A stretch of DNA of 64,000 nucleotides from Clostridia bacterium (GTDB lineage Bacteria > Bacillota > Clostridia > UMGS1883), in contig JAZUCF010000024.1 of assembly GCA_045638945.1 (NCBI GenBank), positions 25,055 through 89,054 of the forward strand, given 5' to 3'. Shown piece by piece: positions 291 through 61,164 of the stretch. The notes beneath the pieces are model-generated. The model did no database searches, was not told the DNA's origin, and saw only the letters and a list, made by a program, of their open reading frames with translations. The position numbers and the translations under genes are program-made. The first letter of the stretch is position 1. Each line of letters opens with the position of its first letter.

Positions 291-300
291 CCGTATAGGA

Positions 301-380
301 AATTGAGCAATTCAATCGTGAGCAACGCTTGTTTGTTTAAAATTTAGTTGTGGCACGAAATGGGTGAAGCGGCACGCTTC
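301..380 (-). repeat. ~80-bp intergenic repeat family, copy C; overlaps last 12 codons of metH
   Basis: Shares the 17-mer GTGAAGCGGCACGCTTC (364-380) and a diverged head (AATT..AATT.AATCG.GAG) with copies at 19803-19883 and 53702-53772. Confidence 0.6.
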
Positions 381-4307: not shown

Positions 4308-4469
4308 AAATATCATTCCTTGTAATAAGAATATCTGTATTTTATCATAAATATATAATGCAATCAATAAAAACAGCCGATTTTTTTGAAAATATTGTTG
4401 TAGGTTTGCCGATGATGTGTTAAAATACATTAGGTTGAAATATTAAAATAACAAAGGATAGAATCTTGA

Positions 4470-5837
4470 ATGAATACTAAACTAACAAAAGATTTCACAC
4501 AGGGAAATATAGCAAAGCAGCTTCTCAGGTTCATGATTCCGTTTATGCTGTCAAATGCACTGCAAGTACTCTACAGCACAATTGACATGATAATAGTGGG
4601 CGAATTTGTAGGTACGGCAGGGCTTTCCGCAGTATCGCAAAGCAGTCATATAATAAACTTTGCCGCAATGGTCTGTCTGGGATTTTCAAATGCAGGGCAG
4701 GTGCTTATCTCTCAGGCATTGGGTGCAGGTAAAAAAGAAAGGCTGAATCATATAATAGGAACTCTCTTTTCAATGCTGATGATTATTGCACTGATATTTA
4801 CGGCGGTGTTTATAAGCTTTAAGGATGCTATTCTAAATGCAATCAGCGTTCCCGAAGAATCGTATAAAATGGCGATTCATTACCTTGTTATCTGTGGCGG
4901 AGGAATGGTGTTTACGGCAGGGTATAATATGGTTTCCGCTGTGCTTCGCGGAATGGGAGATTCTAAAAGACCGCTCCTTTTCATTCTGATTGCATCGGTG
5001 GTTAATTTAGTGCTTGACTATTTATTTACAGGGCTTATGGACTTTGGTGTGGCAGGCGCCGCATGGGCCACCATAATAGGACAGGCAGTGTCATTTATAT
5101 TCTCTGTTTATTACTTGTATAAGCGTAAGCAGGAATTTGGTTTTGATTTTAAGATTAAAAGCTTTCGCATAAAGAAAAATTATGCACGTACTATAATAAG
5201 CCTCGGAACCCCTATGGCAGTACAGGCAGGATTTATAAATATTTCTATGCTCTTTGTAAATTCCCTTATAAACAAGGTGGGTGTAGTTGCATCTGCAACC
5301 TTTGGTGTAGGTGTGCGTATAGACGATATTGTAAATAAAATTTGTATGGGAATTCAGTATGCCGCAATTCCCATGATAAGCCAGAACATAGGTGCAGGCA
5401 AGCAGGAAAGAGCACAAAAGGTTGTTTACACTGCATGGCTGTTTTCAGGGGTTTTAACGCTTTTCTTCATGGCTCTTTATTTGGGGTGCGGTCAGTGGCT
5501 GTTTAAGATGTTCTCCGACGATGTCAAGGTTCACGAAATGTCACATATCTTTATTTCTGCAATACTGTGGATGTTCCCTGCCTTTGCGGTTATGAGGGGA
5601 AGCGGTGCATTTATCCAGGGAATAGGACACGCCAAGCTCAGCATGGTGCTTGCACTGCTCGACGGCGTATTCCTCCGAATAGGACTCAGCTATCTTTTCG
5701 GAGTGCTGCTGGGATGGGGATTCTACGGATTTGTATTAGGATATGCATTGGCCCCCTATGGATTTGCAGTTCCCAGTATGATATATTTCCTTTCAGGAAA
5801 ATGGAAAATGCGTAAAACTTTAGCCGAAGAATTATAA
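4470..5837 (+). CDS. MATE family efflux transporter
   Basis: 455 aa, 12 predicted TM segments; N-terminal motif typical of MATE/NorM proteins. Confidence 0.8.
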   Translation: MNTKLTKDFTQGNIAKQLLRFMIPFMLSNALQVLYSTIDMIIVGEFVGTAGLSAVSQSSHIINFAAMVCLGFSNAGQVLISQALGAGKKERLNHIIGTLFSMLMIIALIFTAVFISFKDAILNAISVPEESYKMAIHYLVICGGGMVFTAGYNMVSAVLRGMGDSKRPLLFILIASVVNLVLDYLFTGLMDFGVAGAAWATIIGQAVSFIFSVYYLYKRKQEFGFDFKIKSFRIKKNYARTIISLGTPMAVQAGFINISMLFVNSLINKVGVVASATFGVGVRIDDIVNKICMGIQYAAIPMISQNIGAGKQERAQKVVYTAWLFSGVLTLFFMALYLGCGQWLFKMFSDDVKVHEMSHIFISAILWMFPAFAVMRGSGAFIQGIGHAKLSMVLALLDGVFLRIGLSYLFGVLLGWGFYGFVLGYALAPYGFAVPSMIYFLSGKWKMRKTLAEEL

Positions 5838-5849
5838 AAGGTGTTACCT

Positions 5850-6563
5850 ATGAAAAGAAATGAATTTATTAATGGAATTAAAGATGGGATTCCCATTTGT
5901 CTGGGCTATTTTTCGGTGTCAATGGCATTTGGAATTGCCGCGGTCAAGGGCGGTATCCCTGCATGGGCGGCAACGCTTACCTCGCTTTCCAATGTGACAA
6001 GTGCAGGCCAGTTTGCAGGGATTAATATAATGCTGGCATTGGGAAGCCTTATCGAGCTTGCAATTACTACGCTTATTATAAACATGCGATATTTCCTTAT
6101 GTCGCTGTCTGTTTCGCAAAAGGTAGATTCTTCAATGAAATTGTGGCAAAGATTTTTAGTGTCATTTGGCATAACGGATGAAATCTTTGCAGTGTCAATG
6201 CGTCATTCCCGACCCCTTACGGCGGTGTATATGGCAGGGCTGATTATAACCCCCGTGATTGGGTGGACGGCAGGAACCCTGACCGGTGCCGTTGCAACTA
6301 AGGTTATGCCTCAGGTGCTTACTTCCGCAATGGGAATTGCCCTTTACGGAATGTTTATCGCAATAATAATTCCCCCTGCAAGGAAAAATATCAAGGTAAT
6401 GACGGCAGTAATTGCATCAATAGGAGCAAGCCTCGTATTTTCATACGCTCCCATTCTTAGGAATATATCAAGCGGATGGGCAATTATTATAATAACGATT
6501 ATTGTCAGTGCTTTTTGTGCTACATTTTTCCCCGTGGAGGAGAAAGGAGGCAGTGATATATGA
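5850..6563 (+). CDS. azlC: AzlC family branched-chain amino acid permease subunit
   Basis: Polytopic membrane protein with AzlC-like N-terminus GIKDGIPICLGYFSVSMAFG; ATG at 5850 preceded by AAAGGTG. Confidence 0.75.
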   Translation: MKRNEFINGIKDGIPICLGYFSVSMAFGIAAVKGGIPAWAATLTSLSNVTSAGQFAGINIMLALGSLIELAITTLIINMRYFLMSLSVSQKVDSSMKLWQRFLVSFGITDEIFAVSMRHSRPLTAVYMAGLIITPVIGWTAGTLTGAVATKVMPQVLTSAMGIALYGMFIAIIIPPARKNIKVMTAVIASIGASLVFSYAPILRNISSGWAIIIITIIVSAFCATFFPVEEKGGSDI

Positions 6564-6902: not shown

Positions 6903-6990
6903 TTTTATCTTTCTGGTGCAGGTAACAGGACTTGAACCTGCATGAAATTGCTCTCATACGGACCTGAACCGTACGCGTCTGCCAATTCCG
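6903..6990 (-). tRNA. tRNA-Leu (anticodon CAG)
   Basis: Reverse complement reads GCAGGTA acceptor, D-arm, anticodon stem TACGG/CCGTA with loop TTCAGGT (CAG), long variable arm, T-arm CAGGTTCAAGTCCTG and a 3' CCA encoded; 88 nt. Confidence 0.85.
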
Positions 6991-7091
6991 CCATACCTGC
7001 ATATTTGATACTTTGATATTATACATCATAAATAATTGAAAATCAAGTGTTTTTTGGGAAAATATTTACCTGAAAGAGGGAGTAAAAACAT

Positions 7092-19796: not shown

Positions 19797-19802
19797 ACAG
19801 TA

Positions 19803-19883
19803 TAGGAATTTGCGTAAATTTAATTCGCATGAAACTGTGTTCGTGCAATGTTCGGGTGCGACGAGAGTGAAGCGGCACGCTTC
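19803..19883 (-). repeat. ~80-bp intergenic repeat family, copy A
   Basis: Ends with GTGAAGCGGCACGCTTC 4 nt from the stop codon of the minus-strand transporter gene; head AATTTGCGTAAATTTAATTCGC resembles copies B and C. Confidence 0.6.
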
Positions 19884-19887
19884 TTTT

Positions 19888-20997
19888 TTACTTAATTATA
19901 ATCATTTCTGAAAGGGTAAGCAGTATTAAAAATCCGAAATTAAACGCCGTAAACATTCCTATATACTGCATTGCCCTTTTGGGATTATACTTTGTGTATT
20001 CACGGAAAGTGATAAGACTTGCCAAGGAAGCAATCAGCGTTCCCACACCGCCGATATTCACCCCTAAAAGAAGCTCTCGGTAGTTGTTTGTGAACTGCGA
20101 CAGCAGTATTGCAGAGGGAACATTGCTTATAATCTGACAGGACAGAATACTAAAGAGCAGCGTGCTTTTACCTAATAGATATTCAAATAAATTCTGAACG
20201 ACTTCAATCCTTGCCATATTTCCTGCAAATATAAAGAAAAATACAAAGGTCAGAAGCAGGGGATAGTCCACCGCTTTAAGTGCTTTTCTGTCCATAAAGA
20301 AGAGTACGGGTGGGATAATAATAAGCCCCGTTATATAAGGAATTGTCCTGAAAACAATCGCGATTGAAAGAATAAAGAGAAGTAAATAGATGAAAGTTCT
20401 CTTTTTGCTAAGCTTGGGCGAAGCATCGTTTATTCTAAGCGGTTCGGGGTGAACAAATATGAAGCAGCAAATGGTTATGATGCTTATTGCAATAACAAAA
20501 GGTGGTGCCATTATTCCCATAAATTCATCGGTGGGAATATTGAATTTGGTGTAAAGAAAAAGATTCTGCGGATTTCCGAAAGGTGTGAGCATACCGCCTA
20601 AATTTGCGGCAATGTTCTGCATAATAAATGTAAAGCACATATACTTTTCTTTATGTGTTGAGCTTAGCACAAAGTAGCCCAGCGGAAGAAAGGTTAAAAG
20701 TGCCATATCATTTGCAATCAGCATTGAGCCGATAAAGGTTATGTATATAATTGCGGTGATTGCCGCACGTGCATTTTTAAAGCATTGTACAATTTTCTGT
20801 GCCAATATATAAAAGAAATTAATATTTTTAAGTGCACACACAACGGCAAGCACACAAAAAAGACAGGTAAGCGACTTAAAATCAAAATATCCGATATATT
20901 CTTTGTCTATTCCCACTATAATGCTTGTAATAAGAGCTGCAAAGAATGCAACAGATAAAACAGCATTGTTTTTCATAAAAGAGGCGATTTTACTCAT
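19888..20997 (-). CDS. Polytopic membrane transporter (ArsB/NhaD-like ion-transporter superfamily, putative)
   Basis: 369 aa, ~10-12 TM segments, PFGNPQNL motif; family assignment is tentative. Confidence 0.45.
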   Translation of the reverse strand: MSKIASFMKNNAVLSVAFFAALITSIIVGIDKEYIGYFDFKSLTCLFCVLAVVCALKNINFFYILAQKIVQCFKNARAAITAIIYITFIGSMLIANDMALLTFLPLGYFVLSSTHKEKYMCFTFIMQNIAANLGGMLTPFGNPQNLFLYTKFNIPTDEFMGIMAPPFVIAISIITICCFIFVHPEPLRINDASPKLSKKRTFIYLLLFILSIAIVFRTIPYITGLIIIPPVLFFMDRKALKAVDYPLLLTFVFFFIFAGNMARIEVVQNLFEYLLGKSTLLFSILSCQIISNVPSAILLSQFTNNYRELLLGVNIGGVGTLIASLASLITFREYTKYNPKRAMQYIGMFTAFNFGFLILLTLSEMIIIK

Positions 20998-42617: not shown

Positions 42618-42872
42618 TTATTCTACCACTTTTGAATAGGTTTTTTTGCCTTCGGATTCACTTTCATAGTAGAAAGAGCGTATTCTTACACCAAGCTCCT
42701 TGGCGGCATTTAATATTATGTTTTTTGCACTGTCGTCAAAACGCAGACTATATCCACATCCCTCTCTTGCTATTGCCTGCGGCGTCTGAATAACAGAGGA
42801 ATACACCCCGAATTCGTAGGCGTGCCGTTTCAGCCGTGTTGCTGATGTAATTGAAGCCATTGTTGCAAGCAT
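42618..42872 (-). CDS. DUF3343-like small protein (putative S/Se carrier partner of the cysteine desulfurase)
   Basis: 84 aa, immediately upstream of the desulfurase, with a conserved internal Cys (..AIAREGCGYS..). Confidence 0.4.
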   Translation of the reverse strand: MLATMASITSATRLKRHAYEFGVYSSVIQTPQAIAREGCGYSLRFDDSAKNIILNAAKELGVRIRSFYYESESEGKKTYSKVVE

Positions 42873-43068
42873 TGAAATCTCTCCATTCCTTTATTGCACA
42901 TACTTTATTTTATGCTGAACGCACTTCTTTGGTTATAGCGGAAGTATGAATTATTAAAAATGTAACAAATTCGTAAAGAATAACAAAAATATGTTGAAAT
43001 AAAGAAAGAAAAGTGTTATTATAACTATATATGGCTATTTTGTGATTAAAAATTGGGAGGGAATTAAA

Positions 43069-48102: not shown

Positions 48103-49485
48103 ATGAAAAAGCATCAAAGAATTACAAGTCTAATAATTATTTTGATACTCTTGTGTTCGTTTTCCTGCACTTCATATGCTGAAAATGAAAATAAAAAAGT
48201 GAATAATTCTTCTGAAACCTCGCAGGAGACCCCTGAAAAAAATACAATTGAGGCAAAGTCGCCCCATGCCGTTTTGATGGACTTAAAAACAGGTTCGATT
48301 ATATATGAGAAAAATTCCAGTGATGCGGTTTATCCCGCGGGGTTAACTAATATAATGACCGCAGTCCTTGTCCTTGAAAACTCTAATATGGAGGAGCTTG
48401 CCACTGCAAGCGAAACGGCTCTTTCCAATGTCTTGCCCGGGGACAACAAAATGGGTATTTTAAAGGAAGAGAAGCTGTCGGTGCGTCAGCTTGTTTACGG
48501 GATGCTTTTAGAGTCTGCCTCCGATGCAGCAAACGTTCTTGCAGAAAAAACAGCAGGCAGTATAGAAGCCTTTGTAAATATGATGAATGCCAGAGCCAAG
48601 GAGCTTGGCATGGAGAAAACAAGCTTCACCAATCCTGCGGGAAACCATGATGACAGACATTATACAACTCCAATGGATATGGCGATTTTAGCAAAGCACG
48701 CTATGTCAATCCCTGAGTTTTGCGATATTGTAAAATGTGATTCCTACACTATTCCTCCAACGGAAAAGAATCCCAATTCAAGAAAGCTTACAAACAGAAA
48801 TCATCTTGTAAGCAGACTTATACGAAATGATTATTATTACGCAAATGCCACAGGGCTTAAAACAGGCTACAGTGCAGAAGCAAAGAGCTGTGTGGCGGCA
48901 TCGGCACAAAAAGGCTCAATGTCACTTTTAGCGTTGGTTTTTGAAGCCGACACAAGCAATAATGTACTGCAAAGCTATGATGACTGCAGAAAGATGTTTG
49001 ATTTTGTGTTTTCAAATTATGTGTCGCAAACTATTGTCAGCGAGGGAGATATAGTAGCACAAACCAATATTATAAATACAAGGCGTGACAATAAAATTAT
49101 TTTAACGGCAGAGAGACCATTATCCGTTATTCGTGAAAAAGATTCCGAGCCTGTGGAGGTCACATATAAGGATTTCGTGAAAAAATCCGTAAGTGCTCCC
49201 GTGAAAAAAGGTGAAAAAATCGGAACGAGAGAGTATTTTGTAAACGGGCAGTCTATAGGAACGCTAAATCTTTTAGCAGAGAAAAATTATAAGCTCGACC
49301 CCGTGACATTCTTTATAAATAAGCTTAAGGCATTTTTTACTTCGCCATGGCTTTATGCGGTCATAGTTTTATTGATAATATTCTTTATTTTAGCGGAAAG
49401 AAGACGAAGAAGAATCCTCCGCAAAAAACGGCGTGACGCCCGCAAAAAAAGAAATCTGGAACTGATTCACAGTATAGACAGCTAA
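48103..49485 (+). CDS. PBP5/D-Ala-D-Ala carboxypeptidase (S11) homolog with degenerate active-site motifs (predicted inactive)
   Basis: Signal peptide; S11 fold. SxxK reads PAGLTNIMT (Ser->Gly, Lys->Asn), SxN reads ESASD (Asn->Ser), KTG retained (LKTGYS). C-terminal TM plus polybasic tail. Confidence 0.7.
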   Translation: MKKHQRITSLIIILILLCSFSCTSYAENENKKVNNSSETSQETPEKNTIEAKSPHAVLMDLKTGSIIYEKNSSDAVYPAGLTNIMTAVLVLENSNMEELATASETALSNVLPGDNKMGILKEEKLSVRQLVYGMLLESASDAANVLAEKTAGSIEAFVNMMNARAKELGMEKTSFTNPAGNHDDRHYTTPMDMAILAKHAMSIPEFCDIVKCDSYTIPPTEKNPNSRKLTNRNHLVSRLIRNDYYYANATGLKTGYSAEAKSCVAASAQKGSMSLLALVFEADTSNNVLQSYDDCRKMFDFVFSNYVSQTIVSEGDIVAQTNIINTRRDNKIILTAERPLSVIREKDSEPVEVTYKDFVKKSVSAPVKKGEKIGTREYFVNGQSIGTLNLLAEKNYKLDPVTFFINKLKAFFTSPWLYAVIVLLIIFFILAERRRRRILRKKRRDARKKRNLELIHSIDS

Positions 49486-49520
49486 CAAAAAACGGCTCAA
49501 TCGAGCCGTTTTTTGTTAGC
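49481..49520. repeat. 40-bp perfect palindrome/terminator; left boundary repeat of the low-GC cassette
   Basis: GCTAACAAAAAACGGCTC-aatc-GAGCCGTTTTTTGTTAGC; its 30-nt core is repeated at 53667-53701. Confidence 0.7.
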
Positions 49521-49546
49521 TTTATGGAGAACTTTCATCTCCCAAA

Positions 49547-50461
49547 TCATATTTTTTCGGCAGAAATCATAGCTCCGTTAAGCATATCAATTTTTATAAT
49601 AAAATGCTCTTTAGCTGTCCGGCAAATTATAGCAAAGTACCTACCGTCAAATAACGGAGTGTGCTCAATATAATCATAAGAATTATATAAATCCGGAGCT
49701 TTTTGAGAGCCTAAAGTTGTAATCCCTAAAGAATATAATTCATTTTTCAAATTAAATCTTACTTCTGATTCTTCGCTTTTATAAACAAAATCCACGACCT
49801 CTCCGAATGTCGTTCCGGGGTATTGAATATAAAAGTTTTTGCCATATAAGAATTTGCCTTTTATACCACCATGAGGAGAAGTACTCCAAAGAGCCATATA
49901 ATCGAGCTTGGGGCGAACAGCTTTTTCGGTGTTTATCACATATACTTTTCCATCAAAAAAATACTCCCAATCTAATAATTTTACCGCAATATCCCATACC
50001 AAAGGAATATATGTTACACCACGGAAATTGACAACGGGATATCTCTTTTCACTATTATACTTTTGGTTTTGAATGTATACATCATATTGAACAGTATATG
50101 TTTTATGAAAATCTCCGGAAACATTTTGTTGATTTGAAACAACCTCTGAAAAGTTTTCCTCTCTCTGGTCACTTTTTCCGACATAAAAAAGATAGGGAGA
50201 GTTTTCATTATATCCTTTTTTTCCATAATGCGTTTCCAGTCCTGCGAAGTTGCACATATTATGTGTCAATGGAAAATATAATATATTATTATACTCTAAA
50301 AATGGATATTCTCTATAGGTATTTTCTATAATTTGTCCGTTTACTTTAATTTCATATTTAGGAACAGATACATTTAAAGTTTTCGCACTGACTTTCATTC
50401 CTAGGAACAAGGTAATGAATGTGGAAATTATTATAAAAATTGATTTTTTCACTTTTTTCAC
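49547..50461 (-). CDS. Secreted protein of unknown function
   Basis: Signal peptide MKKVKKSIFIIISTFITLFLGMKVSA; no recognisable domain; low GC. Confidence 0.5.
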   Translation of the reverse strand: MKKVKKSIFIIISTFITLFLGMKVSAKTLNVSVPKYEIKVNGQIIENTYREYPFLEYNNILYFPLTHNMCNFAGLETHYGKKGYNENSPYLFYVGKSDQREENFSEVVSNQQNVSGDFHKTYTVQYDVYIQNQKYNSEKRYPVVNFRGVTYIPLVWDIAVKLLDWEYFFDGKVYVINTEKAVRPKLDYMALWSTSPHGGIKGKFLYGKNFYIQYPGTTFGEVVDFVYKSEESEVRFNLKNELYSLGITTLGSQKAPDLYNSYDYIEHTPLFDGRYFAIICRTAKEHFIIKIDMLNGAMISAEKI

Positions 50462-50467
50462 TCCTGT

Positions 50468-51622
50468 TTAAGGCATTTGCTGAAAATATATAGATATGTT
50501 TTCTTCATGCCAGTTGGTACCACTATTTTTTATTACCTGCCTTGCATTATCTGAATTTGTTCCAAAAGCTCCGCAACGATCCGGTTCATAGTTGTTTCCG
50601 CTTATATGTTCGCCGTCAGCACAATTTTCGGGTAACATTTTAGTGGTTATTCCGTTTGGTGTTGAATATATGTAAGAATTATCAAAGGCAGCATTCAATA
50701 AACGTGTTCCCGTCAAATAATTATGGTTGGAATTGCACAATGTAATTTGCTTGTTGAATGATGTGTTTGTATCGTAAATTCCATAGCTTCCCACATGAAA
50801 ATGATAGTCTACAAATACTCTATCAAAATTTGTTCCATCAACTATTTTAAAGCTCATAAATCCGGGGTTTTCTGACAAATGTTCAACCCTAAAATATAAC
50901 CTATTTGTGTCAATATATATATCATCGAAAGGCTCATACATGTCCTCTTCAAGAACAAATTCAGGGTCTGTTCTTAATTGAAAAACTCTCCACCTAACAA
51001 GCCCATCTCCACCAAGTTCATACGCAACTCCAAAATCCATATAAAAATCTTGTACCCCAGGATAAGAAGCCGATGTATCAATAGTATAAAACATGTAACC
51101 AGCGGTATCATTAGTTTTGTTTTGAATTGTGGGCAAGGTAACAAAAGTAGTTGCTCCGGAATATTCAGACAAAGACATAACCTCCCAGCCTATCCCTTCA
51201 TCACCTGGTCGGTTAATCGCCCTGCTTGAACTGTTTTCACTGCTGATTGCAAGCTTTTTATTACGATTATCTTCAATAATGGGGACTGTTGACATGGATG
51301 CTTTAATATAGTTTTTTACTTGTTCTTTGCTGAATCCATATGTTTCTGCATCCCTTTTAATAGATTTTATAATATCCTTGTAAGCTCCTTTTGCAGACAT
51401 TCCATTATTTTCATATTCCTTTTGAACGAAAGATGACATTTCTATCTCTTCTAAGTCTATTTCATTGTTTTTCAAAAACGTTACAGTTTCAGTTCCCAAC
51501 AGAGTTGTTTTTTCTTTTGCAGAAAAAACAGATAAATCCTTTTCTATACCTTCATCTGCATTTGCGATGCTTATGCTTGATAACATAAAAATCGTTACGA
51601 AAAAAAATAATTTCTTTTTCAT
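50468..51622 (-). CDS. Secreted protein of unknown function
   Basis: Signal peptide MKKKLFFFVTIFMLSSISIANA; 384 aa; no recognisable domain; low GC. Confidence 0.5.
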   Translation of the reverse strand: MKKKLFFFVTIFMLSSISIANADEGIEKDLSVFSAKEKTTLLGTETVTFLKNNEIDLEEIEMSSFVQKEYENNGMSAKGAYKDIIKSIKRDAETYGFSKEQVKNYIKASMSTVPIIEDNRNKKLAISSENSSSRAINRPGDEGIGWEVMSLSEYSGATTFVTLPTIQNKTNDTAGYMFYTIDTSASYPGVQDFYMDFGVAYELGGDGLVRWRVFQLRTDPEFVLEEDMYEPFDDIYIDTNRLYFRVEHLSENPGFMSFKIVDGTNFDRVFVDYHFHVGSYGIYDTNTSFNKQITLCNSNHNYLTGTRLLNAAFDNSYIYSTPNGITTKMLPENCADGEHISGNNYEPDRCGAFGTNSDNARQVIKNSGTNWHEENISIYFQQMP

Positions 51623-51752
51623 GACATTTTTTCTCCTTTACTTTATCATAAAATTTTGTTTTTTTCAACTGCTTTACAGTTGTTTTTGACGTTTGTCCGT
51701 TTTTTCATATGTAGTCCAACGGAATCACCTCGCATATAGGTAAAGAACAAAA

Positions 51753-52202
51753 TTAATAATTAATTACATCACTGTATTTGGTTATTGTCTCAATCAAGTT
51801 GCCGCTGCTGTCATACGCTTTGTGAGTAAGCTTTAGACGATAGGAATAGCCTTTTGCAACGGCGTATTTTTCATCTACAAATGCATTGGAGCCTCCTTTA
51901 TCGCTCCAGGTTTTAATTGAACTCCAACTACTTCCTTTTTGCTGTAATGCAACTGATACATATGCGGTATATCCTACAGGTACATTTGTTTCTCCGTAGC
52001 ACTCAAATATTCCTCCGGATTTAAGTACGAAATCGTTTTCGGTGGAGGTAATAATAATATTTGCAGGTGCTACAATACTTGCATTACTTACCGGAGTAGC
52101 AGCAAAGGTGTTTAAAGCAGTTATTGACATTGATGCACAGCCTACTGTTGCAACAATAAGGGAAGTAATGCGTTTAACATAGTTTTTGTTTGATTTTTTC
52201 AT
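51753..52202 (-). CDS. Small secreted protein of unknown function
   Basis: Signal peptide ..ATVGCASMSITALNTFAA; 149 aa. Confidence 0.45.
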   Translation of the reverse strand: MKKSNKNYVKRITSLIVATVGCASMSITALNTFAATPVSNASIVAPANIIITSTENDFVLKSGGIFECYGETNVPVGYTAYVSVALQQKGSSWSSIKTWSDKGGSNAFVDEKYAVAKGYSYRLKLTHKAYDSSGNLIETITKYSDVINY

Positions 52203-52334
52203 GGAAAAAATCCCCTTTCATTTTAGATTTCATATATAATAATCCTCGAAAAGCTAAAAAGGGGACAAAATTTCTAAAATTTTTGTAAAAAAATAAAACG
52301 CATACCGTTTACCGGTTTGCGCTTTACTATGTTA

Positions 52335-53045
52335 CTATTTAACTATAATATTTTCAGCAATTTTAATTATTTCGTCTTTTTCAATGTTTGCTGTAATTCG
52401 ATAAGTATATGAACTATTATGCCATATCAGCATATTTCTATCCGTCTTTGATATATAGATGCCATCATAGCCATTTATCGTAATGTTTTCCACAACGGCA
52501 TTTTCAGTATCTACTGCGGAATTTACATCAAGTTTACCAAGTCTAAATTGAAAATATTTATCCTTGTTTAAGAAAGATAAGCTCACCATCCTGCTGGAAA
52601 CACTGCTTTCCTCTGAAACAAATCCCTCCGGAATATACTTAAGGTCTACCATACCATCGTATATTTCTCCTTGCTTTTTATCTGTGAAGCGTATTTCTGT
52701 ATCAGGGGCATCGGCATCAAAAATAAAATTCATGAATTTTATTCTCCAAGCTTCTACGGAAAAAACAGCCACTGTCATTATCGCGGCGAATATCAGGAGG
52801 AAACAGGCCGCTCTTTTAGTATAAACCATAGCCTTGAGCAATTTTTGCTTACGCCGTTCGCGACTGAAAAGTGCCTTCATTTTTTTTGTGTGCTCCTGTG
52901 AAAATTCTACCTGTGATTTCTTTAAATCATATTCAACACAGATTCTTTCATCAGCTAAAATTGTCGCTTCATCAATTACGGCTTCAAAAGCTTTGTCAAT
53001 AGAATTTTCTACCGCATTGTTATACGAATTATCAGTACTTTTCAT
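52335..53045 (-). CDS. Anti-sigma factor (single TM, C-terminal DUF4367-like domain)
   Basis: Overlaps the ECF sigma gene stop; cytoplasmic N-term, TM ACFLLIFAAIMTVAVF, extracellular C-domain. Confidence 0.55.
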   Translation of the reverse strand: MKSTDNSYNNAVENSIDKAFEAVIDEATILADERICVEYDLKKSQVEFSQEHTKKMKALFSRERRKQKLLKAMVYTKRAACFLLIFAAIMTVAVFSVEAWRIKFMNFIFDADAPDTEIRFTDKKQGEIYDGMVDLKYIPEGFVSEESSVSSRMVSLSFLNKDKYFQFRLGKLDVNSAVDTENAVVENITINGYDGIYISKTDRNMLIWHNSSYTYRITANIEKDEIIKIAENIIVK

Positions 53046-53580
53046 TTGCAATTTTCCTCCTTTCCAATTCTTTTTTTAGTATGTGCTTAGCTCGTTGTAA
53101 ACGCTTTTTGACAGTTTCGGATTGTAACCCTGTAATTTCGGAAATTTCAGTTATGCTCAATTTATGTACTCTTGAAAGCAAAAGAACCTCTCTGTATTTA
53201 ATATCCATATGATATATAGCATCCGAAACATTTTTTACAGCCTCCTTATTCAGCACCAGCTCTTCCGGAGTAAACACGTTTTTGGGGGAAAGCTCAATTT
53301 CGTCTGTATTATTCAAATCATGCCTTTTTTGTTTATTATAAAGTTTAAGGGCAACGTTACGGCATATTGTGCACAGGTAGTTTCGTGTTGCAATAGACTC
53401 TGGTTGGGCAATTTTTTCTAAATTGCCCCTAAGTAATATTTCAAAGGTTTCATGTATGGCATCTTCTGCCGCATGTTGATTTTCAAGTATTTCAAATGCC
53501 ACGACAAACAACAGTTTTCCGTATGAATGATATAGAGATTCAATTTTATCAACTTTATTAACCGGTTTTTTGAAGAACAT
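53032..53580 (-). CDS. ECF-type sigma-70 family RNA polymerase sigma factor
   Basis: Region 2 (..LLFVVAFEILENQHAAEDAIHETF) and region 4 HTH (LSITEISEITGLQSETVKKRLQRAK). Confidence 0.8.
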   Translation of the reverse strand: MFFKKPVNKVDKIESLYHSYGKLLFVVAFEILENQHAAEDAIHETFEILLRGNLEKIAQPESIATRNYLCTICRNVALKLYNKQKRHDLNNTDEIELSPKNVFTPEELVLNKEAVKNVSDAIYHMDIKYREVLLLSRVHKLSITEISEITGLQSETVKKRLQRAKHILKKELERRKIANEKY

Positions 53581-53662
53581 ATTTTGTCATCTCCCTTCGG
53601 TGACTTCTGCCTAATTCTATCACAAACAACACCTGTTTTCAATAGCTTGAGGTAAAAAAGCC

Positions 53663-53704
53663 CAAGTAAAAAACGGCTCAAATTGAGCCGTTTTTTGTTT
53701 GGAA
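53663..53704. repeat. Palindromic terminator; right boundary repeat of the cassette
   Basis: CCAAGTAAAAAACGGCTCAAATTGAGCCGTTTTTTGTTTGG shares AAAAAACGGCTCAA..GAGCCGTTTTTTGTT with 49481-49520. Confidence 0.7.
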
Positions 53705-53772
53705 ATTTGTGTAATTAAATCGCGAGTAGCTTTTGTCTTAGCCGGTAAGCGACGAGGCTGAAGCGGCACGCC
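53702..53772 (-). repeat. ~80-bp intergenic repeat family, copy B
   Basis: CTGAAGCGGCACGCC abuts the rubrerythrin stop codon; head AAATTTGTGTAATTAAATCGCGAGTAGC resembles copies A and C; shares GCGACGAG with copy A. Confidence 0.6.
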
Positions 53773-54306
53773 TTAATAATTCTCTTTTCTGATTTCAAAG
53801 TATGCCTGAGGATGAGCGCATACGGGGCAAACCTGAGGAGCCTTTTTACCCATTACAAGGTGACCGCAGTTTCTGCATTCCCAGATTGCTTCTTCTGCCT
53901 TTTCAAATACCTTCTGCATTTCCACATTATTAAGAAGTGCACGGTATCTTTCCTCATGTGTCTTTTCGATTGCGGCAACAGCACGAAACTGTGCTGCAAG
54001 AGCGGTAAAGCCTTCTTCCTCAGCTTCTTCAGCAAAGGTCTTATACATATCTGTCCATTCGTAGTTTTCGCCCTCTGCTGCTGCAAGTAGGTTTTCCTTT
54101 GTGCCGCCGAGAAGCTCAAGAGCCTTGAACCAAAGCTTTGCATGCTCCTTTTCATTGTTTGCTGTGTCTTCAAAAATTGCGGCTATCTGCTGGTAGCCTT
54201 CTTTTTTTGCAACGGATGCAAAATAAGTGTACTTGTTTCTTGCCTGTGATTCGCCTGCAAATGCGGCAAGAAGATTTTTTTCGGTTTTTGTTCCTTCAAA
54301 TTTCAT
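53773..54306 (-). CDS. Rubrerythrin
   Basis: Ferritin-like diiron domain (E..H pairs) plus C-terminal rubredoxin-like CRNCGH...CPVCAHP. Confidence 0.9.
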
Positions 54307-54342
54307 TTAAAACACCTCGTTTAATATTATTTTTTAAAAATG

Positions 54343-54363
54343 TAAAATTATTCATTTTACATA
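54343..54363. promoter_or_regulatory. Perfect 8-5-8 palindrome TGTAAAAT-tattc-ATTTTACA upstream of rubrerythrin (candidate operator)
   Basis: Exact inverted repeat 37-57 nt upstream of the rubrerythrin start codon. Confidence 0.45.
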
Positions 54364-54377
54364 ATAAAATCAATTGT

Positions 54378-54656
54378 GTAGTGCAGTAAGACTTGAACAC
54401 CTGTTGTCTCAAACGAATTATTTTTGAAGCCTTTCAACTTGTCGGTTTTGAAGGGCGACAGCCCATCTGCAACCTCCGCATTAAAATCCTTCTAAAAATA
54501 GTTCGTTTGAGATGCGAGCAGTTTTAACAGTGACAATTTTTCTTAAAACAAGGAAAAGGTCGCAGGTAATACTTCCGTATTATCAAGAGCTTTGACACAG
54601 TTTTATGGGAAATTGTCCTGTTAAAACCAATAGGGGTTCAGGTCTTACTGCACTAA
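54378..54656. other. ~275-bp element with terminal inverted repeats and nested long-range complementarity (MITE-like insertion or structured ncRNA), unclassified
   Basis: AGTGCAGTAAGACTTGAAC (54380-54398) vs reverse complement of GTTCAGGTCTTACTGCACT (54636-54654). Inner pairing TCTCAAACGAA (54406-54416) / TTCGTTTGAGA (54502-54512). Right TIR overlaps the engB stop codon. Confidence 0.45.
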
Positions 54657-59528: not shown

Positions 59529-59798
59529 TTGAAATCGGTTATCACAGTTATGGGTAAGGACAGCGTGGGCATTATTGCAAAAGTAAGTGCGCTCCTTGCC
59601 AAAAATGAAATTAATATAATTGACATTTCACAGACTACATATGAAAATCAGTTTTTAATGGTAATGATTGTAGATATGAAAAATGCCAATGTATCATTTG
59701 CCGAAACTGTAAATGAATTAAAAGCTTTGGGCGAAGCACTTGGTCAGAAAATCCAGGTTCGTAATAAAAAAGTTTTTGATTCAATGCATAGAATTTAA
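59529..59798 (+). CDS. ACT domain protein (UPF0237 family)
   Basis: 89 aa; [37 protein letters not shown] fold; TTG start after GGAGG. Confidence 0.7.
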
Positions 59799-59811
59799 GG
59801 GGGGGACAAGA

Positions 59812-61164
59812 ATGATAGATCCTTTTGAAATAATGGAAACCATTAATATGGTGGACAATGAACATCTTGATATAAGAACAATCACTATGGGAATTTCTCT
59901 CCTTGACTGCATTGGACAGGATTCTGATATTGCGGCGGAGAAGGTTTATGACAAGGTAACACGTCTTGCAGAAAATCTTGTTCCGGTAGGTGAGCAGCTT
60001 GAAAGGGAACTGGGTATACCGATTATAAATAAAAGAATTTCGGTGACGCCTATTTCAATTGTAGGCTCTGCATGCGGAGATTATATTAAGTTCGCAAAGG
60101 CGCTTGACCGTGCGGCGGATGCTACGGGAGTCAATTTTATCGGCGGTTATTCCGCACTGGTACAGAAGGGATATACCAAAGGGGAATATGACTTTATTGA
60201 AACTATTCCCGAAGCCCTTTGCACAACAAACAAAATTTGTTCCAGTGTAAATGTAGGCTCAACAAAGGCAGGTATTTCCATGGATGCCGTGGCACACATG
60301 GGAAGAATTATCAAGAGGACAGCGGAGCTTTCAAAAGACCGTGACGGTTTCGGCTGTGCAAAGCTTGTAGTTTTTGCAAATGCTGTTGAGGATAATCCCT
60401 TTATGGCAGGTGCCTTTCACGGAACGGGCGAGGGCGAATGTGTAATAAACGTTGGTGTAAGCGGACCCGGAGTTGTTAAGAAGGCGCTTGAAAAAGTAAA
60501 GGGTGCAGATTTTGGAGTTGTGGCGGATACTATTAAGAAAACCGCATTTAAAATCACCCGTATGGGTCAGCTTGTTGCAGGCGAAGCGGCAAAGAGACTT
60601 GGTGCACAATCGGGAATTGTCGATCTTTCCTTGGCACCTACTCCGGCAATCGGTGACAGTGTTGCACATATTCTTGAAGAAATGGGCGTTGAAAAATGCG
60701 GTGCGCCGGGAACTACGGCGGCTCTTGCCCTGCTTAACGATGCCGTGAAAAAAGGCGGCGTAATGGCTTCCTCCTATGTAGGCGGTCTTAGCGGTGCGTT
60801 TATTCCTGTCAGCGAGGATGCAGGTATGATTGATGCGGTAAGATGCGGAGCTCTTTCTCTTGAAAAGCTTGAAGCAATGACATGTGTTTGCTCGGTTGGT
60901 ATAGATATGGTTGTTGTTCCCGGAGATACTTCGGCGGAAACAATATCGGGAATTTTGGCAGATGAGGTTGCAATCGGTGTTATAAATACAAAAACAACAG
61001 CCCTCAGAATTATTCCCGCACCCGGAAAAAAGGTAGGAGATACCGTGGAATTCGGCGGGCTTTTAGGTACAGGTCCCGTAATGCCTGTAAATCCATATGG
61101 CTGTGTGGATTTCATCAGCCGCGGAGGAAGAATCCCTGCCCCCATGCACAGCTTGAAAAATTAA
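59812..61164 (+). CDS. UPF0210/DUF711 family protein
   Basis: [33 protein letters not shown] is the conserved N-terminus of the UPF0210 family, which typically follows the UPF0237 ACT protein; GGGGGG RBS. Confidence 0.7.

What the first reader, a model, noticed from the sequence alone, without database searches (positions are those of the whole stretch)
49481..53704. Low-GC 4.1-kb cassette (ECF sigma/anti-sigma + three secreted unknown proteins) bracketed by near-identical palindromic terminators
The block 49547-53580 is visibly more AT-rich than its flanks. It encodes an ECF sigma factor and an overlapping single-TM anti-sigma, followed by three signal-peptide proteins (149, 384 and 304 aa) with no recognisable domains. 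It is bounded by two ~40-bp palindromes sharing a 30-nt identical core (AAAAAACGGCTCAA..GAGCCGTTTTTTGTT). This is consistent with insertion of a horizontally acquired, self-regulated secreted-effector module into a terminator hairpin, duplicating it. The right boundary lies directly beside repeat copy B.
Basis: partly seen in the sequence, partly recalled or inferred. Interest (0 to 1): 0.7.

Follow-up and report, generated by a model that had tools for sequence, protein, structure and literature searches.

The report
Swappable secreted-protein islet in a duplicated terminator
A 4.1-kb low-GC gene islet, carrying its own sigma/anti-sigma switch and three exported proteins of unknown function, sits inside a duplicated terminator hairpin between two housekeeping genes of an uncultured gut Clostridia bacterium; relatives have the empty site, and strains of the same species carry very different versions of two of the exported proteins.

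Summary

**Composition.** Window 49522-53661 is the lowest-GC 4.1-kb block of the window (34.0% against 41.3%). The GC3 of all five of its genes is lower than that of each of 51 other ORFs.

**Insertion site.**
- The block is bracketed by two roughly 41-bp palindromes that share a 30-bp hairpin.
- Two congeneric species (L002, L004) and three more distant relatives have dacB, one hairpin and rubrerythrin, which is an empty site.
- L003 has the islet with two hairpins.
- L001 has a different, Agr/holin-type islet at the same junctions.

**Recent exchange.** The sigma/anti-sigma/p149 part is about 99-100% identical between species whose flanks are 87-90% identical. That tract ends in the loop of the right hairpin.

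**Variable block.** In conspecific contigs (flanks about 97.5-98.5% identical), 49606-51614 (p384 and p304) is replaced by three genes only 27-35% identical in protein.

**Regulatory core.**
- Sigma, DUF4367 anti-sigma and p149 form a recurrent trio with a conserved promoter motif, TGTCC-N17-18-CGTTAT.
- The trio is also present in C. difficile phage phiSemix9P1.
- p149 is Ig-like. p384 is a helical domain plus a concanavalin-like sandwich.

**Open points.** The function of the exported proteins is not established. No recombinase is present.

The parts
48103..49485 (+). Left flank, not part of the islet: PBP5/DacB-type D-Ala-D-Ala carboxypeptidase. Its stop codon lies in the stem of the left palindrome.
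   Evidence: Pfam Peptidase_S11 at 4e-50 plus PBP5_C. It is syntenic in L001-L008.
49480..49521 (.). Left copy of the duplicated bidirectional terminator hairpin (AAAAAACGGCTC-AATC-GAGCCGTTTTTT, extended to 19-bp arms). It would terminate dacB on the + strand and the islet operon on the - strand.
   Evidence: -30.4 kcal/mol. Junction alignment.
49547..50461 (-). p304: an exported 304-aa protein with two YP(F/L)L..Y..ITY.PLT repeats (divergent Cu_amine_oxidN1-like) and a C-terminal domain of about 130 aa. The last 59 nt (49547-49605) are the conserved left recombination arm.
   Evidence: No Pfam family. hhalign gives 95% to bona fide Cu_amine_oxidN1 proteins over the first repeat. Only 8 word-indexed homologues. 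Alignment. The conserved 3' end is seen in L001, L003 and L060.
50468..51622 (-). p384: an exported 384-aa protein with an N-terminal helical domain (about residues 30-120) and a concanavalin-like beta-sandwich. Asp196 is invariant, and Gln/Glu292 and Glu/Asp374 are conserved.
49606..51614 (-). Hypervariable replaceable block (p384 plus most of p304). Conspecific contigs carry a non-homologous 3-gene block here.
   Evidence: blastn breakpoints against L060-L063, L066 and L067, with flanks 97.5-98.5% identical. Protein identities are 27%, 35% and 29%. L003 carries a third version. L077 carries the window-type allele at 94%.
51753..52202 (-). p149: an exported 149-aa Ig/FN3-like 7-strand beta-sandwich. 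It is the conserved third gene of the sigma/anti-sigma trio.
52239..52267 (-). ECF-type promoter motif TGTCCCC-N16-GATTAT upstream of p149. This is the inferred target of the islet's own sigma factor.
   Evidence: The motif and its spacing are conserved upstream of p149 homologues in 8 independent loci, including a phage. The strict motif is expected 0.06 times in the window.
52285..52328 (-). Intrinsic terminator after the anti-sigma gene. It separates the sigma/anti-sigma bicistron from p149.
   Evidence: Fold of -22 kcal/mol followed by a T-run. An equivalent hairpin plus T-run is present in L070, L071 and L073.
52335..53051 (-). Putative anti-sigma factor: cytoplasmic N-terminus, one TM segment (residues 81-99) and an extracytoplasmic DUF4367 (LolA-like) domain. 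It overlaps the sigma gene by 20 nt.
   Evidence: Pfam DUF4367 at 5e-21. Hydropathy. PHROG 12603 at 2e-16. The anti-sigma role is inferred from gene arrangement only.
53032..53580 (-). ECF-type sigma-70 family factor (regions 2 and 4 only, 182 aa).
   Evidence: Pfam Sigma70_r2 and r4_2. TIGR02937 at 76 bits against a cut-off of 42.9.
53614..53642 (-). Housekeeping-type promoter (TTGAAA-17-TAGAAT with an extended -10 TG) upstream of the sigma gene. No ECF motif is present here.
   Evidence: Upstream regions are compared.
53662..53702 (.). Right copy of the duplicated terminator hairpin (loop AAATT). The interspecies high-identity tract ends in its loop.
   Evidence: Junction alignment. The first window/L003 mismatch is at 53681.
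53773..54306 (-). Right flank, not part of the islet: rubrerythrin.
   Evidence: Pfam Rubrerythrin at 1e-24 plus RUBY_RBDX. Syntenic in L001-L007.

Best explanation
The block is an accessory genomic islet that occupies the single bidirectional terminator between dacB and rubrerythrin.

**How it got there and how it changes.**
- The ancestral state is dacB, one hairpin, rbr.
- In occupied genomes about 30 bp of that hairpin (AAAAAACGGCTCA..TGAGCCGTTTTTTG) is present on both sides of the insert. Each convergent flank gene therefore keeps a terminator, and the islet ends in one.
- The islet encodes no recombinase. It is gained, lost and swapped by recombination of incoming DNA, with the hairpin itself as one crossover point. 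This last step is inferred.
- Conserved internal arms (the p149-p384 spacer, and the last 59 nt of p304) allow replacement of the distal block alone.

**How it probably works (inferred from anatomy).**
1. A housekeeping promoter makes the ECF sigma factor and a membrane anti-sigma with an external DUF4367 domain.
2. An extracytoplasmic cue releases the sigma factor.
3. The sigma factor fires the TGTCCCC-N16-GATTAT promoter in front of p149. Transcription probably reads through into p384 and p304 and stops at the left hairpin.
4. All three products are exported by Sec. p149 is an Ig-like module. p384 is a probable polymer-acting enzyme or lectin with a concanavalin-like fold. p304 is a stalk-repeat partner that co-diverges with p384.

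The extreme allelic divergence of p384 and p304 within one species points to diversifying selection on an extracellular interaction. Candidates are strain competition, phage or host recognition.
For: **Shown: site and junctions.**
- Empty sites with one hairpin are found in L002 and L004, and in the outgroups L005-7.
- Two hairpins occur in the window and in L003. L001 has two, the right one degenerate, with the same junction sequences (CCAAGTAAAAA on the right, the p304 3' remnant on the left) but Agr/holin content.

**Shown: composition and exchange.**
- GC is 34.0% against 41.3%, and GC3 lies below every other ORF.
- Window against L003: p149 is 99.3% identical, both intergenic spacers are 100%, and sigma is 98.9%. 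By comparison dacB is 88.9%, S41 87.0% and lon 85.8%.
- In 60-nt bins identity is about 100% from 51741 to 53680, and the first mismatch falls in the hairpin loop at 53681.
- The species are roughly equidistant at 87-90%.

**Shown: variable block.**
- Conspecific replacement of 49606-51614, with protein identity of 27-35%.
- L003 and L060 share both ends of the islet at 97-100% but not the middle.

**Shown: recurrence of the module.**
- The full module recurs in L054 and L059. The trio alone recurs in L070, L071, L073 and L075.
- The trio is also in C. difficile phage phiSemix9P1.
- The promoter motif is conserved in spacing and sequence in front of every p149 homologue. In L054 it also precedes a neighbouring WG_beta_rep gene. 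It is absent in front of the sigma genes.
- In L054 p384 follows p141 after 22 nt, which indicates an operon.

**Shown: absence of mobility genes.** No recombinase lies within about 8 kb on either side (Pfam lists).
Against: - All sequences are metagenome-assembled. No transcript, protein or excision product has been seen.
- The direction of individual events cannot be told. L002 and L004 may be secondary losses by hairpin-hairpin recombination, because the five species form a star.
- The same hairpin shape is a common terminator in unrelated metagenomes, so similarity alone is weaker evidence than the junction comparisons.
- On the left side, identity decays gradually rather than stopping at the hairpin.
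- p384 has its own sigma-A-like promoter candidate (TTGAAA-17-TAAAGT) and no ECF motif, so control by the islet's sigma factor rests on read-through and on the L054 and L075 arrangements.
- The p384 model has only moderate confidence (pLDDT 62). Its fold matches do not discriminate between enzyme classes or lectins.
Confidence: 0.72

Rival explanations
1. The islet is old at this site, and the 'empty' genomes are deletions. Recombination between the two directly repeated hairpins removed it precisely and left one hairpin. On this view the window shows the retained state, not an insertion.
For: - Three of five congeneric species have something inserted with the same junctions.
- The species tree is star-like, so occupied and empty lineages do not separate.
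- The right hairpin of L001 has diverged, so the duplication is not very recent.
Against: - Outgroups L005-7 have dacB, one terminator and rbr.
- GC3 is atypical.
- The sigma to p149 part is about 99-100% identical across species, which shows recent import into at least one lineage.
- Loss in some lineages and gain in others are not exclusive. This rival concerns polarity in L002 and L004 only.
Confidence: 0.3
2. The palindrome is a recombination site and not just a terminator. A recombinase encoded elsewhere (Xer-like, or another tyrosine or serine enzyme) would integrate and excise hairpin-bounded cassettes. These would resemble IMEX elements or pdif modules, which carry no recombinase of their own.
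For: - The duplication is exactly the palindrome.
- Its geometry can be read as 11-6/7-11.
- The interspecies identity tract ends in the centre of the palindrome.
- Three different contents occur at one site.
- There is no recombinase in or near the islet.
Against: - The central region varies in length and sequence (AATC, AAATT, ATATT, AATTT, AATCT). This is unlike a strand-exchange spacer.
- Other copies of the module (L054, L055, L059, L070, L073, L075) are not flanked by repeated hairpins.
- The hairpin occurs singly as an ordinary terminator in many unrelated contigs.
- It occurs only at this site in the window and in L001-L004.
Confidence: 0.1
3. The islet is a decayed fragment (moron region) of a prophage or other integrated element. 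The hairpins are what remains of its attachment sites.
For: - The same trio lies in the accessory region of C. difficile phage phiSemix9P1, beside ParA and the lysis genes.
- Sigma and anti-sigma match PHROGs 1740 and 12603.
- The L001 islet carries an r1t-type holin.
Against: - There are no structural, replication or integrase genes, or remnants of them, in 4.1 kb.
- The junctions are identical in several species.
- p149, p384 and p304 have no tblastn or PHROG match in phages, apart from one weak p149 hit.
- Most trios lie in plain chromosomal contexts.
Confidence: 0.1
4. The two hairpins are unrelated terminators that resemble each other because this stem is a favoured terminator sequence. 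Nothing was duplicated.
For: More than 120 unrelated metagenome contigs carry the same 12-bp arms.
Against: - Two copies in 64 kb against 0 expected.
- None elsewhere in L001-L004.
- The empty site has exactly one copy, and homology to the left and right junctions switches at its edges.
- Loop variants are shared between left, right and empty copies across genomes.
Confidence: 0.04

Closest known systems
Clostridioides difficile pathogenicity locus (PaLoc)
   Same: - Both are islands at one fixed chromosomal site, variably present among close relatives, without mobility genes.
- In both, a short sequence stands in their place in strains that lack them, and imperfect direct repeats flank them.
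- Both are moved, lost and exchanged by host homologous recombination (PMC3914685).
- Both carry their own alternative sigma factor plus a membrane anti-sigma that controls exported proteins. The alternative islet in L001 even has a holin and Agr-type control.
   Different: - The islet is 4 kb against 19 kb.
- Its sigma factor scores as a generic ECF type and was not shown to belong to the TcdR group.
- It has no large toxins and, in the window, no holin. Its cargo has Sec signal peptides.
- Its flanking repeat is a complete terminator palindrome.
- It has an internal hypervariable block with alleles below 35% identity within one species.
ECF sigma / single-pass anti-sigma signalling modules of Firmicutes (for example Bacillus subtilis SigV-RsiV and SigW-RsiW, and clostridial SigI-RsgI)
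   Same: - A two-domain sigma factor is co-transcribed with an overlapping single-TM anti-sigma that has an extracytoplasmic sensor domain.
- There is a dedicated promoter with a -10 element of the CGT type and 16-17 nt spacing.
   Different: - The sensor domain is DUF4367 (LolA-like), which is uncharacterised.
- No ECF motif lies upstream of the sigma gene, so autoregulation is not evident.
- The -35 element is TGTCC(C/A)C rather than the (G)AAC type.
- The invariant target is a small Ig-like exported protein.
- Membership in a named ECF group was not tested.
Recombinase-less cassettes bounded by short palindromic sites (IMEX elements at dif, Acinetobacter pdif modules, integron attC cassettes)
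   Same: Gene modules without their own recombinase, bracketed by repeated imperfect palindromes of about 28-40 bp, with different cargos at one site.
   Different: - Here the palindrome is a functional-looking intrinsic terminator with a variable centre.
- No Xer or IntI involvement is known.
- No array and no second site were found.
Concanavalin-like secreted proteins: B. subtilis YncM (4hfs), neprosin (glutamic peptidase G3, 7zvc), PL7 alginate lyases
   Different: - Sequence identity is 5-14%.
- There is no sequence-level match to any Pfam or PDB entry.
- Catalytic residues are not mapped, and the model is of moderate confidence.
- The N-terminal helical domain has no counterpart assigned.

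Membership tests
ECF (group 4) sigma-70 factors | Only regions sigma-2 and sigma-4, with a length of about 170-200 aa | tested here: met
   Pfam Sigma70_r2 (residues 16-86) and Sigma70_r4_2 (residues 119-165) in 182 aa. TIGR02937 sigma70-ECF at 76 bits against a cut-off of 42.9.
ECF (group 4) sigma-70 factors | Adjacent, co-transcribed anti-sigma factor | tested here: inconclusive
   The downstream gene overlaps by 20 nt, has one TM segment and carries DUF4367. This pairing is conserved in all 10 loci examined. No known anti-sigma domain (such as zf-HC2 or RskA) was detected, and binding was not tested.
ECF (group 4) sigma-70 factors | Cognate promoter with conserved -35 and -10 elements, usually also upstream of the sigma operon (autoregulation) | tested here: inconclusive
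   A conserved TGTCC(C/A)C-N16-17-(C/G)GTTAT motif lies upstream of the p149 homologues. It is not found upstream of the sigma genes, which have sigma-A-like promoters.
Classical genomic island | Sporadic distribution among close relatives at a conserved site | tested here: met
   Occupied in the window, L003, L060-67 and L077. Empty in L002, L004 and L005-7. Different content in L001.
Classical genomic island | Atypical base composition | tested here: met
Classical genomic island | Flanking direct repeats | tested here: met
   A hairpin of about 30 bp is duplicated.
Classical genomic island | Integrase or other mobility gene, insertion at a tRNA or tmRNA gene | tested here: not met
   No recombinase domain in the five genes or in neighbours within about 8 kb. 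The only tRNA of the window is at 6914-7000.
PaLoc-type toxin locus (TcdR/TcdC/TcdE/toxins) | TcdR-family (group 5) sigma factor, holin-dependent export, large glucosylating toxins | tested here: not met
   - The sigma factor's best matches are generic ECF models.
- There is no holin and no toxin domain in the window islet.
- The cargo has Sec-type N-termini.
- A holin is present only in the alternative islet of L001.
IMEX / pdif-module type cassettes | Bounded by XerC/XerD-type sites (11-6-11) with a conserved central region, and recurrent at several sites | tested here: not met
   The central region varies in length and sequence between copies. The hairpin is found only at this site in the window and relatives. 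Other copies of the module lack such repeats. Xer binding cannot be tested here.
Cu_amine_oxidN1 (stalk) domain proteins, for p304 | Match to PF07833 above the gathering score | tested here: not met
   Window p304 has no hit. 1 of 18 family members hits at E = 0.008. Profile-profile comparison with three bona fide members gives 95% probability over 75 columns that include the signal peptide. A divergent relationship is plausible, but membership is not shown.
Glutamic peptidases, PL7 lyases or GH16-like concanavalin-fold enzymes, for p384 | Family sequence signature and catalytic residues in place | tested here: inconclusive

The most novel reading that the evidence does not exclude
Terminator palindromes in these gut Clostridia would serve as attachment sites for recombinase-less gene cassettes. 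The cassette here would be a sigma/anti-sigma-gated polymorphic 'effector plus cognate partner' pair (p384/p304) that mediates strain-level recognition or antagonism. It would be exchanged as a unit between species and also carried by phages. That would be a new kind of cassette exchange system, together with a new family of extracellular polymorphic proteins.
Probability: 0.1. Interest if true: 0.8.

Novelty: new variant of a known kind. Interest (0 to 1): 0.55.

Why it matters
**Population genetics.** This is a clean natural example of how a small self-regulated module enters a bacterial chromosome without mobility genes. It duplicates a bidirectional terminator, so neither neighbour loses termination, and it then becomes a hot spot where cargos are swapped. 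Within one species of an uncultured gut Clostridia lineage the two distal exported proteins differ as much as distant homologues do (27-35% identity), while everything around them is about 97.5-98.5% identical. That pattern is typical of loci under strong diversifying selection, such as competition, phage or host recognition.

**Uncharacterised families.** The work also defines a widespread regulatory trio: an ECF sigma factor, a DUF4367 anti-sigma and an Ig-like exported protein, with a TGTCC..CGTTAT promoter. The trio is shared with C. difficile phages. Three protein families in the islet have no Pfam model. All of these are directly testable.

Tried and rejected
- **Exact-sequence look-ups.** Window DacB and P0001 are not on record.
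- **RNA searches.** Rfam at gathering level on the whole window, and at E-value level on the right junction and on the 54.4-kb insertion, gave nothing meaningful.
- **L001 259-aa protein.** I suspected it was a homologue of the p384 sandwich. hhalign gave 0.8% probability, so this is rejected.
- **Hairpin duplications elsewhere.** None were found around other copies of the module (L054, L055, L059, L070, L073, L075).
- **Metagenome scan for the hairpin.** It was not informative about this locus and weakens the 'dedicated recombination site' idea.
- **p149 against phages.** tblastn gave no hit. The phage link came only through the anti-sigma and a profile comparison.
- **p384 searches.** The profile against PDB sequences gave nothing. 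Ten remote p384 relatives have no informative Pfam domain.
- **Second strict promoter match.** The match at 59857-59830(-) lies about 800 nt from the next gene on the - strand and is conserved as coding sequence in L004 and L060. I treat it as chance.
- **Literature.** Searches for terminator-targeted island insertion found no direct precedent. DUF4367 is mentioned in one paper only, on GerS/SsdC.

Full report
**1. The observation**

Palindromes:
- The left palindrome is at 49480-49521, with 19-bp perfect arms and loop AATC. The dacB stop codon lies in its stem.
- The right palindrome is at 53662-53702, with 20-nt arms that are 90% complementary.
- They fold at -30.4 and -24.6 kcal/mol.
- AAAAACGGCTC..GAGCCGTTTTT occurs exactly twice in the window, against 0 expected.
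- The shared core is 14 nt plus 15-16 nt on either side of different loops. It is not 30 contiguous identical bases.

Composition:
- The enclosed block has 34.0% GC against 41.3% for the rest, and it is the minimum of all 4.1-kb windows.
- All five genes have GC3 of 0.26-0.32, below the lowest of 51 other ORFs at 0.332 (p = 5e-7).

- an ECF-type sigma factor (Sigma70_r2 and r4_2, and TIGR02937 above its cut-off);
- an overlapping single-TM protein with a C-terminal DUF4367 domain;
- three proteins with Sec-type N-termini and no Pfam or NCBIfam family.

**2. Comparative test of the insertion**

A scan of one genome per species with the DacB protein, followed by tblastn with all local proteins, gave four congeners and more distant relatives. 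In the congeners DacB is about 92% identical and flank DNA is 87-90% identical.

| Locus | State of the site |
|---|---|
| L002, L004 | dacB and rubrerythrin about 125 bp apart, with exactly one copy of the same hairpin |
| L005-L007 (DacB about 60%) | dacB, one different bidirectional terminator, rbr |
| L003 | The islet and two hairpins |
| L001 | A different 6-kb insert at the same junctions |

The L001 insert holds a LytTR regulator, a GHKL kinase, AgrB, an AgrD-like ORF, a 259-aa protein, a Cu_amine_oxidN1 protein and an r1t-type holin. Its left junction is the hairpin followed by a remnant of about 100 bp of the p304 3' end. Its right junction is CCAAGTAAAAA followed by a degenerate hairpin.

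Alignments of the junctions show that homology to the empty site switches at the hairpin edges. About 30 bp (AAAAAACGGCTCA..TGAGCCGTTTTTTG) is therefore duplicated.

The roughly 75-nt repeat with core TGAAGCGGCACGC beside the right hairpin is present in the empty sites too. It belongs to the rubrerythrin 3' region and not to the insert.

Independent assemblies show the same structure, so it is not an assembly artefact.

**3. Evidence of horizontal movement and of a second level of variability**

Between the window and L003:
- p149 is 99.3% identical, the two intergenic spacers are 100%, anti-sigma is 97.5% and sigma is 98.9%.
- By comparison S41 is 87.0%, dacB 88.9%, engB 90.1% and lon 85.8%.
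- In 60-nt bins identity is about 100% from 51741 to 53680. The first mismatch, at 53681, is in the loop of the right hairpin, after which identity falls to the level usual for rubrerythrin.

In conspecific metagenome contigs L060-L063, flanks and the 51615-54370 segment are about 97.5-98.5% identical to the window. In these contigs window 49606-51614 is replaced by three genes of 355, 333 and 314 aa. Their products are 27%, 35% and 29% identical to p384 and p304.

The breakpoints are the p384 start codon and the last 59 nt of p304.

Further versions exist:
- L003 has a third version (362, 298 and 325 aa). Its last gene is 94.6% identical to L060's last gene, while its middle genes are unrelated at the DNA level.
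- L077 carries the window-type allele at 94% throughout.

The window's p384 is closer to proteins in other contexts than to the allele in its own species: 56% to L055 and 50% to L054.

**4. What the module is**

Distribution:
- The p384 family is rare, with 9 word-indexed hits in 5.8e9 proteins and 119 representatives in 1.84e9 by exhaustive profile search.
- The p304 family is similarly rare.
- p149 has 65 homologues.

Arrangements (look-ups of encoding contigs):
- The order sigma, DUF4367, p149-like, p384-like and one to five p304-like genes is found in L054 and L059.
- The p384/p304 pair is found alone in L055-58.
- The trio sigma, DUF4367 and p149 is found alone in L070, L071, L073 and L075. 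L070 is from the same genome as the empty-site locus L007.
- The anti-sigma also matches C. difficile phages. In phiSemix9P1 the genes phi39 (sigma), phi38 and phi37 (147 aa, signal peptide) repeat the trio. phi37 aligns to the p149 profile at 96.7% probability.

Promoter:
- In front of every p149 homologue there is a motif TGTCC(C/A)C-N16-17-(C/G)GTTAT(A)TATA with constant spacing. In the window it is at 52267-52239(-).
- The phage has two copies. L054 has a second copy in front of a WG_beta_rep gene. L075 has a second copy in front of the gene after p146.
- The strict motif is expected 0.06 times in the window.
- Sigma genes instead have sigma-A-like promoters. In the window this is TTGAAA-17-TAGAAT at 53642-53614.
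- A terminator separates the anti-sigma gene from p149.

Structures:
- p149 residues 50-149 form a confident 7-strand Ig/FN3-like sandwich (pLDDT about 97) with only generic neighbours.
- p384 (pLDDT 62, pTM 0.71) has a confident helical domain at residues 30-120 and a concanavalin-like sandwich.
  - In 48 family members D196, G143, G198 and W371 are invariant.
  - Q/E292 is conserved in 46 of 48 members and E/D374 in 47 of 48.
- p304 has two YP..Y..ITY.PLT repeats that resemble stalk (Cu_amine_oxidN1) repeats. hhalign gives 95% and Pfam is sub-threshold.

**5. Mechanism, with status of each step**

Shown:
- the insertion site, the duplication, the atypical composition, interspecies near-identity, the conspecific block replacement, recurrence of the module and the conserved promoter motif.

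Inferred:
- The DUF4367 protein is the anti-sigma factor.
- The sigma factor uses the TGTCC..GTTAT promoter.
- p384 and p304 are expressed by read-through from p149. No strong terminator lies on the sense strand between them. In L054 they form an operon with the p149 homologue. The window also has a sigma-A-like candidate promoter at 51668-51640.
- The three products are exported by Sec.
- p384 acts on an extracellular polymer, with p304 as a co-diverging partner.
- Diversifying selection explains the alleles.

How DNA enters is open. The tract that ends in the hairpin loop suggests the palindrome is a preferred crossover point. That could be one-crossover integration of a circle carrying one hairpin copy, or illegitimate recombination at the hairpin. 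Replacement of the distal block needs only the conserved internal arms.

**6. Comparison with what is known**

The closest analogue in logic and population behaviour is the C. difficile PaLoc: a fixed site, no mobility genes, imperfect direct repeats, movement by homologous recombination, and its own sigma and anti-sigma (PMC3914685). This islet is not a member of that family. It has no TcdR-type assignment, no toxins and no holin.

The regulatory core works like an ECF sigma/anti-sigma pair, but it has an uncharacterised sensor domain and no evident autoregulation. A reading as Xer/pdif-like cassettes is not supported, because the centres of the palindromes vary, the hairpin is found at a single site, and it has a generic terminator shape.

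**7. Verdict**

The finding is real and correctly interpreted in outline. The function of the exported proteins remains unknown. I rate it as a new variant of a known kind, of moderate interest.

Noticed in passing
window 54380-54654: A MITE-like 275-bp insertion with perfect 13-bp terminal inverted repeats (AGTGCAGTAAGAC / GTCTTACTGCACT) lies in the rubrerythrin-engB spacer. It is absent from conspecific contigs L060-L063 and from L001-L004. It is the only copy in the window and has no Rfam match.
   Followed up: partly
window ~300-390(+), ~19800-19893(+), ~42770-42900(-), 53700-53771(+): A dispersed intergenic repeat of about 75-95 nt has the invariant core TGAAGCGGCACGC and a conserved 5' part AATCGCGAG. 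In three copies it lies directly after the stop codon of a gene on the opposite strand, that is, in that gene's 3' UTR before the terminator. It is also present in L002-L004 but missing in L001 and L005-7. It has no Rfam family, and covariation support for a structure is weak.
   Followed up: partly
L001 11384-17380: The same dacB-rbr site holds a different self-regulated module: an Agr-type quorum-sensing set (LytTR regulator, GHKL kinase, AgrB, and an AgrD-like ORF with CTCPFY), a 259-aa protein without a signal peptide, a Cu_amine_oxidN1 protein and an r1t-type holin. This layout resembles a holin-exported bacteriocin or toxin locus.
   Followed up: partly
L078 (Clostridioides phage phiSemix9P1, KX905163) 4349-6484: The phage carries the same trio (sigM-like sigma, a DUF4367-like 234-aa protein, and a 147-aa signal-peptide protein) with two copies of the GTGTCCA-N17-CGTTATATA promoter. 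The first copy precedes about 370 nt without an annotated gene.
   Followed up: partly
window 52881-53060: Inside the tract that is otherwise about 100% identical between the window and L003, the sigma 3' end and anti-sigma 5' end form a patch of only 83-92% identity. This suggests a further small mosaic exchange at the sigma/anti-sigma junction.
   Followed up: no
L054 9110-13900: One relative carries five tandem p304-like paralogues. Blocks of 213-216 nt are 96-97% identical between non-adjacent copies, which is a sign of ongoing gene conversion or duplication in this family.
   Followed up: no
window 59830-59857(-): This is a second strict match to the promoter motif (TGTCCACC..CCATTAT). 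It lies inside the 5' part of ORF 59740-61164 and about 800 nt from the next gene on the - strand. The same sequence is conserved in L004 and L060, so it is probably coding sequence and a chance match.
   Followed up: no
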